Assembly: GCA_963778905.1 (NCBI GenBank)
Contig: CAVZWH010000028.1
Span: forward strand, 1 to 47,782
Length of the DNA stretch: 47,782 nt
Source: Candidatus Staskawiczbacteria bacterium
Lineage (GTDB): Bacteria > Patescibacteriota > Minisyncoccia > Minisyncoccales > Staskawiczbacteraceae
Reading direction: 5' to 3'
The translations under genes and the position numbers were made by a program. The notes under the pieces were generated by a model. That model saw nothing but the letters and a program-made list of their open reading frames with translations, had not been told where the DNA came from and made no database searches. Below are positions 11,409-43,847 of this stretch, one piece after another. Within the stretch, counting starts at the first letter, position 1, and each line of letters opens with the position of its first letter.

Positions 11409-11419
11409 TTTTTGCCTTG

Positions 11420-11490
11420 TCGGGCTGCTGGGAGTTGCACCCAGGTCTTACGCACCCCATGCGCAAATACTGCTGCTGTACTACAGCCCG
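11420..11490 (-). tRNA. tRNA-Pro(GGG), CCA not encoded
   Basis: Cloverleaf: CGGGCTG/CAGCCCG acceptor, TGCGC-ATGGGGT-GCGTA anticodon arm, CTGGG-TGCAACT-CCCAG T arm. Confidence 0.9.
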
Positions 11491-37660: not shown

Positions 37661-37692
37661 AAACCAGCAGTTATTGCGACTGCTGGTTTTTA
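37661..37692 (+). terminator. Intrinsic terminator ending the ribosomal operon
   Basis: AAACCAGCAGT-TATTGCG-ACTGCTGGTTT followed by T residues. Confidence 0.8.
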
Positions 37693-37977: not shown

Positions 37978-38095
37978 GTAATTAAAAGTCGAAAAAAATA
38001 ATCAGGTGCAATCAAAGGGGTTTAACCTGCTGCCGTGTATAACGGCACCGGATTACTCGGTGGGGAGTCTGAGTTAAACCTCATTGATTAATAAA

Positions 38096-39215
38096 ATGAA
38101 TACTAAATTAAAAGAAAGAGAAAAGGTTGACATGTTCTTTGTGCCAGCTCAAAACACAAAGCCTTATTTTAAGGCAGCTTTGGAAGGGTTTGCCGGATCA
38201 GGCAAAACCTACACAGCGGCATTAATAGCCATCGGTATCCACAAAAGGATCAAATCAGAAAAACCTATTGTGATGTTCGATACAGAAAAAGCAGCAAAGT
38301 TCTTAAAGCCATTATTCGCAGAGGCCGGCATAGAGCTACTGGTCAGAGAATCAAAGTCATTCGCAGACCTAGCCAAAGCAATGGCACTGATGCGAGAAGG
38401 AGCATCAGATATTCTCATAATAAACTCCATAACGCATGTGTGGGAGGAATTCTTAGCTGCATATCAAATAAAGAGCGGACACAGGCGCCTTCAATTTCAA
38501 GATTGGGGAATTATCAAGCCAACATGGAAAGCAGAATTCTCCGATCCATTCGTAAACGACCCTTATCACGTTATTATGTGCGGCAGGGCCGGATTCGAAT
38601 ACGAAAATGAGGTGGATCCGGAAACGCACAAAAAGGGAAATTTACAAATCCGGAATCAAAATGAAAGTGGAGGGCGAAACAGCGTATGAGCCAGACATCC
38701 TCGTCTTAATGGAGAGATACGAAAAAGTACTGGGCGAGGACAAAAAAATCTGGCGCGAGGCGACGATCGTAAAAGATAGGTCGACGCTTATTGACGGAAG
38801 AACATTCAAAAATCCAAAGTTCGAGGATTTCGCGCCATGTATAGAAGCTATGATGAGCAATCCTTACAATAAAAAGGTAAAGCTTGTGCCGGAGGCAGAC
38901 ACCGGAGTGCTATTCAAAACCGAGGAGGAAAGAGCAGAATTCCGGAAAGAAAGGGATAAATGGCTTGAGGAAATAGACGGAGTGCTGATTCGCGCATTTC
39001 CAAGCAGCGCCGGCAAAGATAGGCAATCGAAACTGGATATCTTGTCATTAATATTCGGAACAACATCCGAAACAGCTTTGAGGGAAATATATCCTGAAAA
39101 GCTGGCAAAAGGATATCGCGAAATATTGGACTACCTGGTCGACCAGGGTTACGCCGAGTACATTGAAAGAGATGGGAAAAAGAGGTTAGCCTTCAAGAAG
39201 GCAGAAACAAAATAG
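38096..39215 (+). CDS. Phage P-loop ATPase (Sak4/AAA_24-like), split by an extra A at about 38630-38634
   Basis: GFAGSGKT Walker A, FDTE, IINSITH; removing one A gives DPETHKREIYKSGIKMK...AYEPD...KDRS. Confidence 0.75.
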
Positions 39216-39296: not shown

Positions 39297-39878
39297 ATGG
39301 AAAAACAATTGATACCAAACTCGACGCTCATTCCAAATATTCTGCTAGATTTTGTTTTACCCGAATTACCTGCCGGAGAAATGAGATGCCTATTATACAT
39401 TTGTCGGAGGACATATGGATTTCACAAAGACTACGACAGAATAAGCTTTACTCAATTTATATTTGGAATAACCGGAAAGGACAAAGGTTGCGGAGTTTCA
39501 AGGCCCGTAGTAGCAGAATCCTTGAGAAATTTGGCGCAAGCCGGAGCTATAACAACTCAAAAAAGCAAGCTCGGAAACATCTATAAAATCAACTTAGATA
39601 TGGATCCGGAGGGGGTAGTTAGGAAAGTTAACCAGTTAAGAAAGTTAACCGAAAGTAGTAAGGAAAGTAAACCGAAACAGGTTAGGCTACTTAACCTACA
39701 AAATAAAGGAAATATAGGAAATAAAGAGGTTTTTAAAAATTTAAAAAACGAAACGAACGAAACGTCAAATAGAAAGGGACAACTGCTTGAAATGTATAAG
39801 GTGATGAAATCGAAAGGAATAATTAAAAAATTAAATCCGGAATACGAAGCAATAATTGCCGGAGAAAAATCATTATGA
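39297..39878 (+). CDS. Phage replication initiator (lambda-O-like N-terminal domain)
   Basis: IPNILLD, LLYICRRTYGFHK..DRIS motif; contains iterons. Confidence 0.8.
   Translation: MEKQLIPNSTLIPNILLDFVLPELPAGEMRCLLYICRRTYGFHKDYDRISFTQFIFGITGKDKGCGVSRPVVAESLRNLAQAGAITTQKSKLGNIYKINLDMDPEGVVRKVNQLRKLTESSKESKPKQVRLLNLQNKGNIGNKEVFKNLKNETNETSNRKGQLLEMYKVMKSKGIIKKLNPEYEAIIAGEKSL
39618..39696. repeat. Four 16-bp semi-palindromic iterons, probable phage origin
   Basis: GTTAGGAAAGTTAACC, GTTAAGAAAGTTAACC, GTAAGGAAAGTAAACC, GTTAGGCTACTTAACC, followed by an AT-rich tract. Confidence 0.8.
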
Positions 39879-40045
39879 AAGAAAAATACAGAATTTATTT
39901 CAGAATACCTTTTACATGGTATTATTTGGCGAAAGTGAAAGTAGCGCGATATGAAAATGGAAAAAAAGACAAGGCATTGTTTTGTTTAGCAGTAAAGAAA
40001 TACATTGAAGCGCAAAAAATATATCAGTGGCAATTTCTGCTGTAA
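39875..40045 (+). CDS. Small phage hypothetical protein, 56 aa, not in the ORF track
   Basis: ATGA overlap with the initiator stop codon; MKEKYRIYFRIPFTWYY... Confidence 0.5.
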   Translation: MKEKYRIYFRIPFTWYYLAKVKVARYENGKKDKALFCLAVKKYIEAQKIYQWQFLL

Positions 40046-40048
40046 TCG

Positions 40049-40163
40049 TGCGGAGTAGCATAGTGGATAATGCCCTTATGGATCCGATAAGGTTAATTGC
40101 AGGGTTGGCATCGGCCGTAAGTCCTTCTGCAACAATGCGGCGTTCGATTCGTCGCCTCCGCAA
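40049..40163 (+). ncRNA. tRNA-like RNA with a very long variable arm and a non-canonical anticodon loop
   Basis: TGCGGAG/CTCCGCA acceptor; TA-GCAT-AGTGGATA-ATGC D arm; CTTAT-GGATCCG-ATAAG; GCGGCG-TTCGATT-CGTCGC T arm. Confidence 0.7.
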
Positions 40164-40185
40164 AATATTATTAAACTTTTTAAAA

Positions 40186-40590
40186 ATGAATCCAATAATT
40201 GCGTTAAGAAAATGGCTCTATAAAATTCATTATATCCATTACCTTGAGAAAACGGCTTGGACATACGCATTAGAAGCTGAACTCGAGGAGAAAAAAGAGC
40301 TGGCAGAAAATTATCAACGCCGGGATAATATAGTGGCTGATAGCGAGGGAAAATTAAAACTCTTAGAGGAAAATAAAACGAAGTTGGCGGAATGCAAAGA
40401 CAAGGAAACATATCAAACAGTAAAAAAAGAGGTCGATGCACTTAACGCCGAAATTGAATCAAATCGGATTGCAAAAGAAGGCATGGAAAAGCAATACATA
40501 TCTGGGCTTATAAAATCCATAGCAACTAAACGGCAACAATGTGCAGATAGTTTGGCCAAAGCCAAAGCGTGCCGCAAATTAAAAATATAG
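40186..40590 (+). CDS. Phage hypothetical coiled-coil protein
   Basis: E/K-rich heptads; start moved downstream of the tRNA-like element. Confidence 0.65.
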   Translation: MNPIIALRKWLYKIHYIHYLEKTAWTYALEAELEEKKELAENYQRRDNIVADSEGKLKLLEENKTKLAECKDKETYQTVKKEVDALNAEIESNRIAKEGMEKQYISGLIKSIATKRQQCADSLAKAKACRKLKI

Positions 40591-42768: not shown

Positions 42769-43590
42769 TTATACAGATAAGCTCGACCTTTCGTAATACT
42801 TCTTCGCAAATTCGGCAGGCGGCATTTTAAGCGAGGTCTGGATTCTGGTGTTGTTGTAATTGTGAATTGTTTTGTAGATTGCCCACACTAATTCCCCTAA
42901 GTGATTAAATCTGTTCGGGTCGCCCAAATCAACTTTGAACTGGGAGTAAAACGATTCCTGGTATCCGTTTTCCCAAGGGCATCCTTTCTGGCTCATGGAA
43001 GGATTGATGTTTAAATTGTTTTGCAATGCCACGTAATCTTTTGAAGCGTATTCTGAACCTTGGTCTGAGTGTGAGATTTCTGGAGTTGGGTGATTGCTTA
43101 CGGCCGATAAAAGTGCGTTCATTACGAGACTACTGGAATGATTAAGCAAGACGGAAAATCCAACAATTTGTTTTGTGAATAAATCCAGCACAGTCGCAAG
43201 ATACACAGTTCGTTTTTTGAATTGGATGTAGGTAAAGTCGGAAGTCCAGATGTGATTGGGAAAACTCGGACAATTTGTTAAAAGCAGATTCGGAAATTGC
43301 TCTGAATATTCTTTTTTGACTTTTTTCCATTTTTTCCCTCTGCGGCGATACGGCTTTATGCCGAATATTTTCATTACTCTCAGTATTCTTTTCTTGTTGA
43401 TTTTTAAGTGCATTGCCAATCTTTTGTGACCGTAGCTTGGAAATTCTCTGAGCGTAATTTCAATCTGTTGTTTTAATATCCAATCCTTGTCCGGCTGCCT
43501 GTGATGGTAGTATAGCATTGAGCGGGACATTCCTGCTGCCTTGCTGAATTGTGTTTTGTCCAACGAACAATCTTTGCTCAATCCTTTTTT
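42769..43590 (-). CDS. IS3 OrfB DDE transposase, expressed via a -1 frameshift
   Basis: WTSDFTY, HSDQGSEY and ENGYQESF; A-AAA-AAG slippery site at 43590-43584. Confidence 0.92.
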   Translation of the reverse strand, partial: KKGLSKDCSLDKTQFSKAAGMSRSMLYYHHRQPDKDWILKQQIEITLREFPSYGHKRLAMHLKINKKRILRVMKIFGIKPYRRRGKKWKKVKKEYSEQFPNLLLTNCPSFPNHIWTSDFTYIQFKKRTVYLATVLDLFTKQIVGFSVLLNHSSSLVMNALLSAVSNHPTPEISHSDQGSEYASKDYVALQNNLNINPSMSQKGCPWENGYQESFYSQFKVDLGDPNRFNHLGELVWAIYKTIHNYNNTRIQTSLKMPPAEFAKKYYERSSLSV

Positions 43591-43847
43591 TGGGCTTGGG
43601 ACAGTTTTATGGTTAGCGACCCCACCAGTTCCAGCAGTCCTTTGTTTTCCTTTTTTACTCTGGCAAACTCGGCCCACGAAGGATTGCCGGACACTCCTTT
43701 GGTTAGCCACTTGTAAATTGTGGCTTCGGAAACTCCGTGGTCCTGGCTGGCTTGCGAGACGCTCACGCCTTCGTCTTTGACTCTTTTTAGTATTTGGTCT
43801 TTTACTTCTTTGGCTACATGGTAGCCTTTTTTAGTTGTAGTTGTCAT
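43578..43847 (-). CDS. IS3 OrfA HTH protein
   Basis: SVSQASQDHGVSEATIYKW HTH followed by a leucine-zipper-like segment. Confidence 0.88.
   Translation of the reverse strand: MTTTTKKGYHVAKEVKDQILKRVKDEGVSVSQASQDHGVSEATIYKWLTKGVSGNPSWAEFARVKKENKGLLELVGSLTIKLSQAQKKD

What the first reader, a model, noticed from the sequence alone, without database searches (positions are those of the whole stretch)
40049..40163. Phage-borne tRNA-like RNA that probably cannot decode: 7/6 fold, GGAUCCG loop, very long variable arm
Seen: an intact elbow (U8-A9, D loop with GG, T loop TTCGATT) and fully paired stems, but a 6-bp T stem (13 bp acceptor+T, the length found in tRNA-Sec), an anticodon loop lacking U33 and purine-37, a variable region of about 45 nt closed by TTGCAG/CTGCAA, and no CCA. 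It exactly fills the gap between two ORFs. Inference: intact pairing argues against random decay; it may be a tRNA mimic (RNase P/Z processing signal, decoy for anticodon-nuclease defences, or an intron-containing tRNA).
Basis: partly seen in the sequence, partly recalled or inferred. Interest (0 to 1): 0.75.

Follow-up and report, generated by a model that had tools for sequence, protein, structure and literature searches.

The report
Disabled tRNA-like gene in prophage island
A 115-base stretch between two genes of a prophage-like island in a very small bacterial genome is clearly derived from a tRNA gene, but it has an unusable anticodon loop and a 45-base extra arm, so it is most likely a tRNA relic that is still cut out of the transcript and does not decode.

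Summary
Window 40049-40163 (+) folds into a full cloverleaf with U8-A9, a GG D loop, a TTCGATT T loop, a GGATCCG "anticodon" loop, a 45-nt variable region and no CCA. A strict cloverleaf scan gave 24 hits in the real 741-kb genome and 0 in each of 20 shuffles. ARAGORN and Rfam tRNA/tRNA-Sec miss it. ARAGORN calls it tRNA-Asp(atc) in 140 of 144 in-silico versions with a shortened variable region.

It is not on a free phage. It lies in a prophage-like replication module at the end of a chromosomal contig.

The overlapping ORF is not a conserved protein. Three environmental relatives appear to keep the odd loop and the insert length; their differences in the 3' half could not be read. No other homologue turned up in any collection searched.

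The 13-bp "7/6" branch may really be 6/6 (12 bp), with U40049 as the -1 leader base. The extra arm's pairing is no better than chance.

Best reading: a non-decoding tRNA derivative, probably still processed by RNase P and 3' trimming. A selected mimic function is possible but not shown. Interest is moderate.

The parts
40049..40163 (+). Whole tRNA-like element (115 nt), a cloverleaf with an extra arm
   Evidence: Sequence; centroid fold is the cloverleaf; custom scans; ARAGORN calls it tRNA-Asp(atc) in 140 of 144 versions with the variable region shortened
40049..40055 (+). Acceptor 5' strand TGCGGAG. T40049 may instead be the -1 leader base, with G40050 as +1
   Evidence: Pairs with 40156-40162; 26 of 42 host tRNA genes have T at -1
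40058..40073 (+). D arm GCAT-AGTGGATA-ATGC, preceded by T8 A9 at 40056-57
   Evidence: It resembles the D arms of the host tRNA-Ser(gct) and of a relative's tRNA-Gly(tcc). Relative X3 has C>A at 40073, which breaks the G10-C25 pair
40075..40091 (+). Anticodon-like arm CTTAT-GGATCCG-ATAAG. The 7-nt loop (40080-86) holds the palindrome GGATCC and has neither U33 nor a purine at 37
   Evidence: no listed difference in relatives X2 or X3 (table cut short); no visible difference in P0002
40092..40136 (+). 45-nt variable region: stem 40097-102/40127-32, with inner pairs 40103-04/40123-24 and 40106-09/40114-17
   Evidence: -10 kcal/mol, z -0.49, not beyond chance. X3 has C>T at 40100 and 40109; each turns a C-G pair into U-G
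40137..40155 (+). T arm GCGGCG-TTCGATT-CGTCGC (6 pairs; G53-C61 and the T54..A58 consensus are present)
   Evidence: z -1.98; 8 of 200 shuffles fold at least as well
40156..40163 (+). Acceptor 3' strand CTCCGCA plus A. No CCA; an A/T-rich spacer follows
   Evidence: X3 has one extra A behind 40161
39875..40045 (+). Upstream 56-aa ORF of unknown function; appears to be a real gene
   Evidence: 10 of 12 listed X3 differences fall on codon position 3; no Pfam, PHROG or Atlas hit
40186..40590 (+). Downstream 134-aa ORF with no known relatives; this is the real start of the gene that callers extend over the element (as 170 or 187 aa)
   Evidence: 6 of 9 listed differences fall on codon position 3; only its own cluster among 5.8 billion protein clusters
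39297..39878 (+). RepO-like replication initiator (193 aa) carrying iteron-like repeats at 39615-39679
   Evidence: Pfam Phage_rep_O 1.3e-06 and phrog_678 7.7e-17; repeats D1/D3; relatives are about 290 aa

Best explanation
It is a tRNA gene derivative that has lost decoding. It lies in the replication-module operon of a prophage-like island, in a roughly 0.74-Mb bacterial genome that looks CPR/Patescibacteria-like (my inference from genome size and tRNA set). SHOWN: (1) tRNA ancestry, because the acceptor, D, anticodon-type and T arms and all the elbow nucleotides are intact. (2) It is non-coding. (3) Three departures from a working tRNA: the loop GGAUCCG, a 45-nt variable region, and an acceptor/T branch drawn as 7/6 (or 6/6 if U40049 is the leader). 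(4) Relatives in other metagenomes appear to carry the same odd version. INFERRED: no promoter-like or terminator-like site flanks it on the + strand, so it is transcribed together with the RepO-like gene, the 56-aa ORF and the 134-aa ORF. Its acceptor/T-arm/elbow module makes it a substrate for the host's RNase P, most likely cutting between U40049 and G40050. That cut keeps the usual 12-bp helix and the U(-1)/G(+1) context. 3' trimming and CCA addition would follow. Excision would split the polycistronic mRNA between the two small genes and release a stable RNA of about 114 nt that cannot read a codon. On this reading any benefit is limited to that punctuation, or there is none and the element is simply young.
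For: Cloverleaf far beyond chance: 24 hits in the real genome against 0 in each of 20 shuffles. It is the only clean non-annotated hit in the genome. ARAGORN accepts it as a tRNA in 140 of 144 versions with the variable region shortened. The loop violates positions 32, 33, 37 and 38. No tRNA or tRNA-Sec model matches it. It is non-coding: the ORF's only homologue is a 96%-identical copy; 3 of 3 X3 substitutions fall on codon position 2 of that frame, whereas flanking genes change mainly at position 3 (10 of 12, 6 of 9, 3 of 3); and X3 has a frame-breaking +A. Same-strand genes lie 3 nt upstream and 22 nt downstream, and no + strand promoter-like or terminator-like site lies beside the element. 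The host has a type-A RNase P RNA (132.6 bits) and a CCA-adding-type nucleotidyltransferase. Of 42 host tRNA genes, 35 lack an encoded CCA and 26 have T at -1. Signs of decay in the surrounding module: the Sak4-like ATPase is split over two frames (phrog_1366 positions 3-164 and 166-268), the RepO-like protein is 193 aa against about 290 aa in relatives, and an rve transposase is inserted. X3 carries a D-stem-breaking change, C25>A. The extra arm's pairing is at chance level. No family of such RNAs was found anywhere searched.
Against: All 28 pairs of the four canonical arms are intact, while the loop departs at positions 32, 33 and 37, which are conserved in decoding tRNAs, and at 38. Neutral drift strong enough to scramble the loop should also have broken stems, so the loop changed in one event or under selection. 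The element is about 50% G+C (my count from the sequence) in a 36% G+C genome. Relative P0002 shows 0 amino-acid changes over the 39 codons that span the element, although 254 of 345 possible substitutions there would be visible. It does show changes 11 nt upstream and 35 nt downstream. X2 and X3 have no internal indels. Together these hint at constraint beyond a dying gene. No RNA data cover the element; the one RNA contig laid (X20) covers only 39680-39841. Transcription and processing are therefore not shown.
Confidence: 0.5

Rival explanations
1. It is a selected tRNA mimic with a role of its own. Possible roles: the palindromic GGAUCC loop forms kissing dimers or pairs with another GGAUCC-bearing RNA; it acts as a decoy or sponge for tRNA-binding or tRNA-targeting enzymes; or it is charged by an anticodon-independent synthetase (A73 plus a long arm suggests Leu-type or Ser-type) and excluded from the ribosome.
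For: All canonical stems are intact despite a wholly non-canonical loop. The loop and the insert length appear to be kept in X2, X3 and P0002. Both X3 changes in the extra arm keep pairing, C-G to U-G. Long variable arms are tolerated by working tRNAs, and anticodon-independent serylation of odd tRNAs is known (passages of PMC5389517 and PMC7609411; abstract of PMC7590224 in the listing).
Against: No family was found: 0 hits with covariance model R1 in 150 genomes of the same order, and none in any pattern or BLAST search. A C>T opposite G preserves a pair automatically, so it is not evidence of selection. X3 also has a stem-breaking C25>A. The extra arm is not more stable than shuffles. No defence or tRNA-targeting gene lies nearby. 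The loop resembles no real anticodon loop, so it would make a poor decoy for anticodon nucleases. The conservation statistics are weak and the relatives are not independent.
Confidence: 0.25
2. The feature under selection is at DNA level. The TGGATCCG/GGATCC motif and hairpins serve the replication origin or the neighbouring ParB-methyltransferase, and the cloverleaf is only the relic in which one motif copy sits.
For: TGGATCCG occurs 3 times within 1.5 kb (38613, 39601, 40079) out of 10 on this strand in the whole 741-kb genome. One copy lies 7 nt before the iteron-like repeats inside the RepO-like gene. TATGGATCCG is an exact 10-mer repeat covering the loop plus 3 stem bases (D12). An N6/N4 DNA methylase gene follows.
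Against: I chose the motif after seeing it. 10-mer repeats at this distance are expected by chance; I estimate 2-3 in 4.5 kb, and 14 direct-repeat families were reported. GATC is not markedly enriched in the island. Nothing links the methylase to GGATCC.
Confidence: 0.08
3. It is a working decoding tRNA. One option is anticodon AUC reading GAU, complementing a host assembly that shows no tRNA-Asp. Another is unusual decoding.
For: ARAGORN labels the shortened versions tRNA-Asp(atc). The host assembly shows no tRNA-Asp or tRNA-Met.
Against: G33, C37, G32 and G38 violate the near-universal U33 and purine-37 (established tRNA knowledge). It has A73, not the G73 of tRNA-Asp (identity elements recalled). 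Same-genus genomes have ordinary tRNA-Asp(gtc) and tRNA-Met(cat) that are unlike this element, so their absence here is best explained by the ~7% of the genome that the completeness estimate puts as missing. Rfam tRNA does not match it.
Confidence: 0.06
4. It is an intron-containing tRNA, and the 45-nt insert is spliced out.
For: The host has a tRNA-Asn(gtt) with a 200-nt insert in the anticodon loop on contig C25. Removing the insert gives a sequence that ARAGORN accepts.
Against: 45 nt is far too short for a group I or group II intron (established knowledge). No intron family appears in Rfam at E<=10. No archaeal-type splicing endonuclease was found in the 93%-complete assembly. The anticodon loop would remain unusable after any such removal.
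Confidence: 0.04
5. It is simply the 5' part of a protein-coding gene, the 170-aa or 187-aa ORF that gene callers report.
For: An open frame runs from 40027 or 40078 to 40590. The public call is 170 aa, and a relative's is 187 aa.
Against: Listed substitutions in this stretch fall on codon position 2 in 3 of 3 cases, whereas they fall mostly on position 3 downstream of 40186. A +1 insertion in X3 breaks the frame. No homologues exist beyond near-identical copies. The cloverleaf is beyond chance.
Confidence: 0.03

Closest known systems
Class II (long-arm) bacterial tRNAs, and phage-encoded tRNA genes or pseudogenes
   Same: It has the acceptor, D, anticodon-type and T arms, U8, G18G19, T54-C56, A58 and G53-C61, with an extra arm leaving between the anticodon and T stems. 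It sits in an intergenic gap of a phage-type operon. Like most host tRNA genes, it has no encoded CCA.
   Different: The variable region is 45 nt, against roughly 10-24 nt in class II tRNAs (range recalled). The loop lacks U33 and R37. The T stem has 6 pairs. ARAGORN and Rfam RF00005 do not recognise it.
tRNA-Sec (8/5 or 9/4, 13-bp branch) and allo-tRNAs (8/4, 9/3)
   Same: It has a non-7/5 split of the acceptor/T helix and a long extra arm, and 13 bp if U40049 is counted. Allo-tRNAs also occur near mobile elements and as pseudogenes (passages of PMC5389517 and PMC7609411).
   Different: Here the T stem is the lengthened one (7/6 or 6/6), the opposite of the known types. The D arm is ordinary (4 bp with an 8-nt loop), not the long-stem tetraloop type. 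There is no UCA or other usable anticodon. No RF01852 match and no SelA were found. I saw no 7/6 or 6/6 tRNA in the passages read; this is not an exhaustive literature claim.
tRNA-like processing signals and tRNA mimics (bacterial YrlA Y RNAs, tmRNA tRNA-like domain, mascRNA-type elements; all recalled from knowledge, not from calls)
   Same: An intact acceptor/T-arm/elbow without decoding capacity would plausibly be recognised by RNase P and by CCA-adding and modification enzymes.
   Different: YrlA closes the acceptor-like stem with a loop and uses its 5'/3' ends for a Ro-binding helix. Here the ends form the acceptor stem, no TROVE/Ro protein was found, and no Rfam family matches. Unlike tmRNA, it has a full D arm and an anticodon-type arm.

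Membership tests
Canonical tRNA (Rfam RF00005) | Score at or above the family threshold; detection by a tRNA finder | tested here: not met
   0 Rfam matches at gathering score in the window. No tRNA match at E<=10 in 39900-40320. Not among the 41 RF00005 matches in the genome. ARAGORN with and without introns does not report it. ARAGORN accepts it only after in-silico shortening of the variable region, in 140 of 144 versions.
Canonical tRNA (Rfam RF00005) | Elbow and core nucleotides: U8, A14, G18G19, T54-T55-C56, A58, G53-C61; 4 paired arms | tested here: met
   Read from the sequence; cloverleaf centroid; 24 real hits against 0 in each of 20 shuffles.
Canonical tRNA (Rfam RF00005) | 7-nt anticodon loop with pyrimidine-32, U33 and purine-37 | tested here: not met
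   The loop is GGATCCG, giving G32, G33, C37 and G38.
Canonical tRNA (Rfam RF00005) | 7-bp acceptor plus 5-bp T stem | tested here: not met
   Drawn as 7/6, or 6/6 if T40049 is the leader base. The total of 12 bp is kept only in the 6/6 reading. The mature ends are not known.
tRNA-Sec (Rfam RF01852) | 8/5 or 9/4 branch, 6-bp D stem with 4-nt loop, UCA anticodon, Sec machinery in the genome | tested here: not met
   Not among the 16 RF01852 matches, none of which is over the cut-off. The D arm has 4 bp and an 8-nt loop, and there is no UCA. SelA was not found in the 93%-complete assembly.
Allo-tRNA (8/4, 9/3) | Longer acceptor with shorter T stem (12 bp in all), long D stem with tetraloop, long V arm, G73/U73 | tested here: not met
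   Only the long arm is shared. The T stem is longer rather than shorter, the D arm is ordinary, and position 73 is A. Family features were taken from passages of PMC5389517.
Intron-containing tRNA | Group I/II intron core, or a bulge-helix-bulge motif with a splicing endonuclease; a functional tRNA after removal | tested here: not met
   No intron family at E<=10. ARAGORN -i finds nothing. tRNA_int_endo was not found. The loop remains non-canonical after removal of the insert (labels the result 'atc').
YrlA / Y-RNA-type tRNA mimic | Ro (TROVE) protein partner; Ro-binding helix formed by the RNA ends | tested here: not met
   TROVE was not found in the assembly. No Rfam match. The ends form the acceptor stem.
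Substrate of RNase P / 3' trimming / CCA addition (works like a pre-tRNA) | Cleavage at the acceptor 5' end, 3' maturation | not testable with these tools
   Only feasibility is shown: an RNase P RNA and a CCA-enzyme family protein are present. No RNA reads cover the element.

The most novel reading that the evidence does not exclude
A previously undescribed kind of phage tRNA mimic. It would have an acceptor branch lengthened on the T-stem side (6/6 or 7/6), an oversized extra arm, and a palindromic GGAUCC loop in place of the anticodon. Selection would keep it in a small lineage of phages of ultra-small bacteria. It would act as an RNA in its own right, for example through loop-loop dimerisation or pairing, as a sponge for tRNA-binding or tRNA-attacking host factors, or as a charged carrier kept off the ribosome.
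Probability: 0.15. Interest if true: 0.7.

Novelty: new variant of a known kind. Interest (0 to 1): 0.38.

Why it matters
If it is only a disabled tRNA gene, the practical lesson is one of annotation. Public gene calls lay a 170-aa or 187-aa protein over a tRNA-derived RNA, and standard tRNA finders miss it because of the 45-nt insert.

If it is maintained, it would be a natural example of a tRNA scaffold repurposed by a phage of a CPR-like host. Its acceptor/T split would be the opposite of the known 8/4 and 9/3 types. That would bear on how far the tRNA fold can be stretched while staying a substrate of the processing enzymes, and on tRNA-like RNAs as processing or anti-host devices. With only near-identical relatives available, the case cannot be decided from sequence alone.

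Tried and rejected
Homologue searches that found nothing usable:
- BLAST of the 115 nt in 100 relatives found only short matches; the best non-self was 32 nt at E 0.001.
- BLAST of 39875-40590 in 400 genomes of the order found only hits of 26-72 nt, many in the A/T-rich spacer. The ones I followed up were not homologues.
- Covariance model R1 hit only itself in its own genome (148 bits), 0 of 150 genomes of the order, and at best E 0.3 in 13 RepO-related loci.
- Exact or gapped patterns gave 0 hits in viral contigs, genome contigs and metagenome contigs.
- Phage and plasmid BLAST gave no match.
- Searches with the downstream 134-aa ORF gave 0 loci in viral contigs, 0 in genome contigs, and one spurious GC-rich locus in metagenome contigs.
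- RepO-based loci have no tRNA or tRNA-like element nearby: 3 genome loci and 7 IMG/VR loci.

Ideas tested and set aside:
- Integration at a tRNA gene: none of 24 same-genus genomes has a tRNA within 1.5 kb after rpsI, and the element has no second copy or fragment in the genome.
- Host's missing tRNA-Asp: rejected.
- Protein Atlas gave nothing usable for either neighbouring ORF.
- GATC enrichment near the origin was not marked.

Limits of the read-laying result:
- Run X1 (soil) covers 39300-39633 and 40328-40569 but not the element. The RNA run X20 covers only 39680-39841. Neither says anything about the element.
- Conservation statistics are limited because table 3 was cut (102 rows not shown). 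X3-only differences appear to be listed only up to 40109, and 4 of the 16 X2 differences are unlisted.
- X2 and X3 share alleles in the flanks, and P0002 shows amino-acid changes at the same place (40198-40206). They are therefore not independent.

Tool access: the search of earlier findings was not open.

Full report
**What is there.** Window 40049-40163 (+) reads as follows:
- acceptor TGCGGAG/CTCCGCA, then T8 A9
- D arm GCAT-AGTGGATA-ATGC, then C26
- a 5-bp stem CTTAT/ATAAG around the 7-nt loop GGATCCG
- a 45-nt variable region whose outer stem is TTGCAG/CTGCAA
- T arm GCGGCG-TTCGATT-CGTCGC (6 pairs, one G-T)
- then A and an A/T-rich spacer, with no CCA

All elbow nucleotides are present (U8, A14, G18G19, T54 T55 C56, A58, G53-C61). 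The ViennaRNA centroid is this cloverleaf. The MFE is a different fold, and the energy is not exceptional (z -1.49; 17 of 200 shuffles fold at least as well).

**Is it more than chance?** I ran two cloverleaf scans over the whole 741-kb genome, both strands.
- The first required a T loop TTCRANN, a 5-bp or 6-bp T stem, a fully paired 7-bp acceptor, T8, and a D arm with GG, with the acceptor 5' strand 45-419 nt upstream of the T stem. It gave 30 hits. Of these, 27 are ARAGORN tRNAs, two are AT-rich stretches of about 200 nt, and one is this element.
- The second added an anticodon arm. It gave 24 hits in the real genome and 0 in each of 20 shuffles.

So the element is certainly tRNA-derived. 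Standard tools miss it:
- ARAGORN with or without introns does not report it.
- Rfam at gathering score gives 0 matches in the window.
- Rfam at E<=10 over 39900-40320 gives 3 irrelevant weak matches.
- RF00005 and RF01852 over the whole genome give 41 and 16 matches, none of them here.

When part of the variable region is deleted in silico, ARAGORN reports a tRNA "Asp(atc)" starting at 40049 in 140 of 144 versions. The insert length is therefore what blocks detection by ARAGORN.

**Where it lies.** The window is the whole of contig C28 of a 741,103-base, 31-contig assembly rated 92.9% complete. G+C is about 36%.
- Positions 1-37623 are ordinary chromosome: NifU, MnmA, EF-G, EF-Tu, the ribosomal-protein operons, SecY, RpoA and S9. 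A terminator-like hairpin follows at 37661-37689.
- Similarity to the rpsI loci of 24 same-genus genomes stops right after S9, apart from a few short low-identity segments.
- The rest of the contig is a prophage-like island. It holds a Sak4-like ATPase split over two frames, a RepO-like initiator, a ParB-methyltransferase, an rve transposase and an endolysin-like peptidase.
- Relatives of the RepO-like protein occur in other genomes of the order and in 15-39-kb IMG/VR viral contigs.

"Phage-borne" is therefore only partly right. The bacterial, CPR/Patescibacteria-like nature of the host is my inference from genome size and from the long, class II tRNA-Tyr. I did not test the phylum.

**Coding or not.** Gene callers lay a 170-aa protein (start 40078) or a 187-aa protein (start 40027) over the element. 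Among 5.8 billion protein clusters, only its own cluster was found.

Contigs of public metagenomes hold relatives:
- X3 record 18 covers 39816-40589 with 82 differences and 1 gap.
- X2 record 10 covers 39962-40291 with 16 differences.

The codon positions of the listed differences separate real genes from the element:

| Stretch | Listed differences on the stated codon position |
|---|---|
| 56-aa ORF (39875-40045) | 10 of 12 on position 3 |
| 134-aa ORF from 40186 | 6 of 9 on position 3 |
| RepO-like 3' end | 3 of 3 on position 3 |
| Inside the element (40073, 40100, 40109), in the extended frame | 3 of 3 on position 2 |

X3 also has an extra A behind 40161 that breaks the extended frame. The true start of the downstream gene is therefore 40186, and the element is non-coding.

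**Do relatives carry the same oddities?**
- X2 and X3 show no internal indels, and no listed change in the anticodon-like arm.
- Protein P0002 comes from a 1780-nt ENA contig and is 179/187 identical to the 187-aa frame. It has 0 changes in the 39 codons across the element, although 254 of 345 possible substitutions there would alter the residue. It does have changes 11 nt upstream and 35 nt downstream.
- So this is not a copy that alone was mutated from an ordinary tRNA.

The three X3 changes are:
- C25>A, which breaks G10-C25.
- Two C>T changes opposite G in the extra arm. A C>T opposite G keeps a pair automatically, so this is not covariation.

Caveats on this comparison:
- Table 3 was cut, with 102 rows not shown. 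X3-only differences seem to be listed only up to 40109, and 4 of the 16 X2 differences are unlisted. The 3' half of the element in X3 is therefore unknown apart from the indel.
- X2 and X3 share flank alleles, and P0002 shows amino-acid changes at the same place (40198-40206). They are not independent of one another.
- The evidence for constraint is suggestive, not decisive.

**Anatomy re-read.** Of 42 host tRNA genes, 26 have T at -1 and 35 lack an encoded CCA by a crude test. ARAGORN sometimes counts a T(-1):A73 pair as the first acceptor pair in host tRNAs. With G40050 as +1, the element has a 6-bp acceptor and a 6-bp T stem. That is the usual 12-bp helix with the junction shifted by one pair, rather than a 13-bp tRNA-Sec-like helix.

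A one-base loss from the 5' acceptor strand of an ordinary 7/5 tRNA would give exactly this. The 3' strand CCTCCGC is complementary to GCGGAGG (inference).

Other points on the anatomy:
- No SelA was found.
- The D arm resembles those of the host tRNA-Ser(gct) and of a relative's tRNA-Gly(tcc).
- The extra arm folds at -10 kcal/mol with z -0.49, and 64 of 200 shuffles fold at least as well. Its pairing proves nothing.
- The loop GGATCCG violates positions 32, 33, 37 and 38 while all 28 canonical pairs are intact. Gradual neutral decay does not explain that. A single replacement event or selection is needed.

**Mechanism.** No + strand promoter-like or terminator-like site lies beside the element, and same-strand genes abut it. 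The host has a type-A RNase P RNA (132.6 bits) and a CCA-adding-family enzyme.

The most likely course is inferred, not shown. The element is co-transcribed with the replication module. RNase P cuts at 40049/40050, followed by 3' trimming and CCA addition. This releases a non-decoding RNA of about 114 nt and splits the mRNA. I give this "disabled tRNA gene, still processed" reading 0.5.

The rivals are:

| Rival | Probability | Main grounds |
|---|---|---|
| Selected mimic with its own role | 0.25 | Stems intact despite a scrambled loop; loop and insert length kept in relatives |
| DNA-level role of the TGGATCCG motif | 0.08 | 3 of the genome's 10 copies lie within 1.5 kb, one beside the iterons; the motif was chosen post hoc |
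| True decoding tRNA | 0.06 | Same-genus genomes have ordinary tRNA-Asp/Met unlike this, so the host's lack is probably an assembly gap |
| Spliced insert | 0.04 | No intron family, no splicing endonuclease |
| Coding sequence | 0.03 | Codon-position pattern and the frame-breaking insertion argue against it |

**Comparison with the known.**
- It shares the fold of class II tRNAs, and the idea of a non-7/5 branch with tRNA-Sec and allo-tRNAs (passages of PMC5389517 and PMC7609411). It fails their defining features.
- It is not a YrlA-type mimic: no TROVE protein was found, and its ends form the acceptor stem.
- I found no family.
- My literature searches turned up no 7/6 or 6/6 tRNA in the listings and passages I read. 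That is not proof that none is in print.

**Verdict.** This is a real tRNA-derived, non-decoding element, confined to a rare prophage lineage. It is a new variant of a known kind, and its interest is moderate.

Noticed in passing
window 39615-39679: Three iteron-like direct repeats of about 19-23 nt (consensus roughly GTAGTTAGGAAAGTTAACC) lie inside the RepO-like gene, in the manner of lambda-type origins. This stretch is also the part found in many metagenome contigs.
   Followed up: partly
window 38084-39215: A Sak4-like ATPase (phrog_1366) is split over two overlapping frames: 38084-38689 matches profile positions 3-164 and 38607-39215 matches 166-268. This could be a frameshift, a pseudogene or an assembly error. 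A GGATCC site sits at the switch point (38614).
   Followed up: partly
window 38613, 39601, 40079: TGGATCCG occurs three times within 1.5 kb of the replication module, out of 10 copies on this strand in the whole 741-kb genome. One copy is the element's loop and one lies 7 nt before the iterons. I chose the motif after seeing it.
   Followed up: partly
window 11419-11490 (-): ARAGORN calls a tRNA-Pro(ggg) here, but Rfam tRNA does not match it at any threshold used. The D loop lacks GG and the T loop is non-consensus. It may be a false positive or an atypical tRNA.
   Followed up: partly
G000 contig C25:49-325 (-), outside the window: A tRNA-Asn(gtt) has a 200-nt insert in its anticodon loop (ARAGORN -i). 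This is presumably a group I intron, but I did not check it against Rfam.
   Followed up: no
whole assembly G000: ARAGORN and Rfam detect no tRNA-Asp and no tRNA-Met (initiator or elongator). Same-genus genomes G015 and G019 have ordinary ones, which find no BLAST match here. This is probably an assembly gap, since the assembly is 93% complete.
   Followed up: yes
window 40027/40078-40590: Public gene calls (170 aa here, 187 aa on a related ENA contig) extend the downstream gene over the tRNA-like element. The real start appears to be the ATG at 40186.
   Followed up: yes
window 42769-43710 (-): An rve-family (DDE) transposase lies on the opposite strand among the phage-type genes. This is probably an IS insertion in the island.
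   Followed up: no
window 39297-39878 vs L032, L033: The RepO-like protein is 193 aa here, against 297 and 288 aa in two relatives. Only the N-terminal ~150 aa align. The C-terminal domain is missing or replaced, and a 56-aa ORF follows with a 4-nt overlap.
   Followed up: partly
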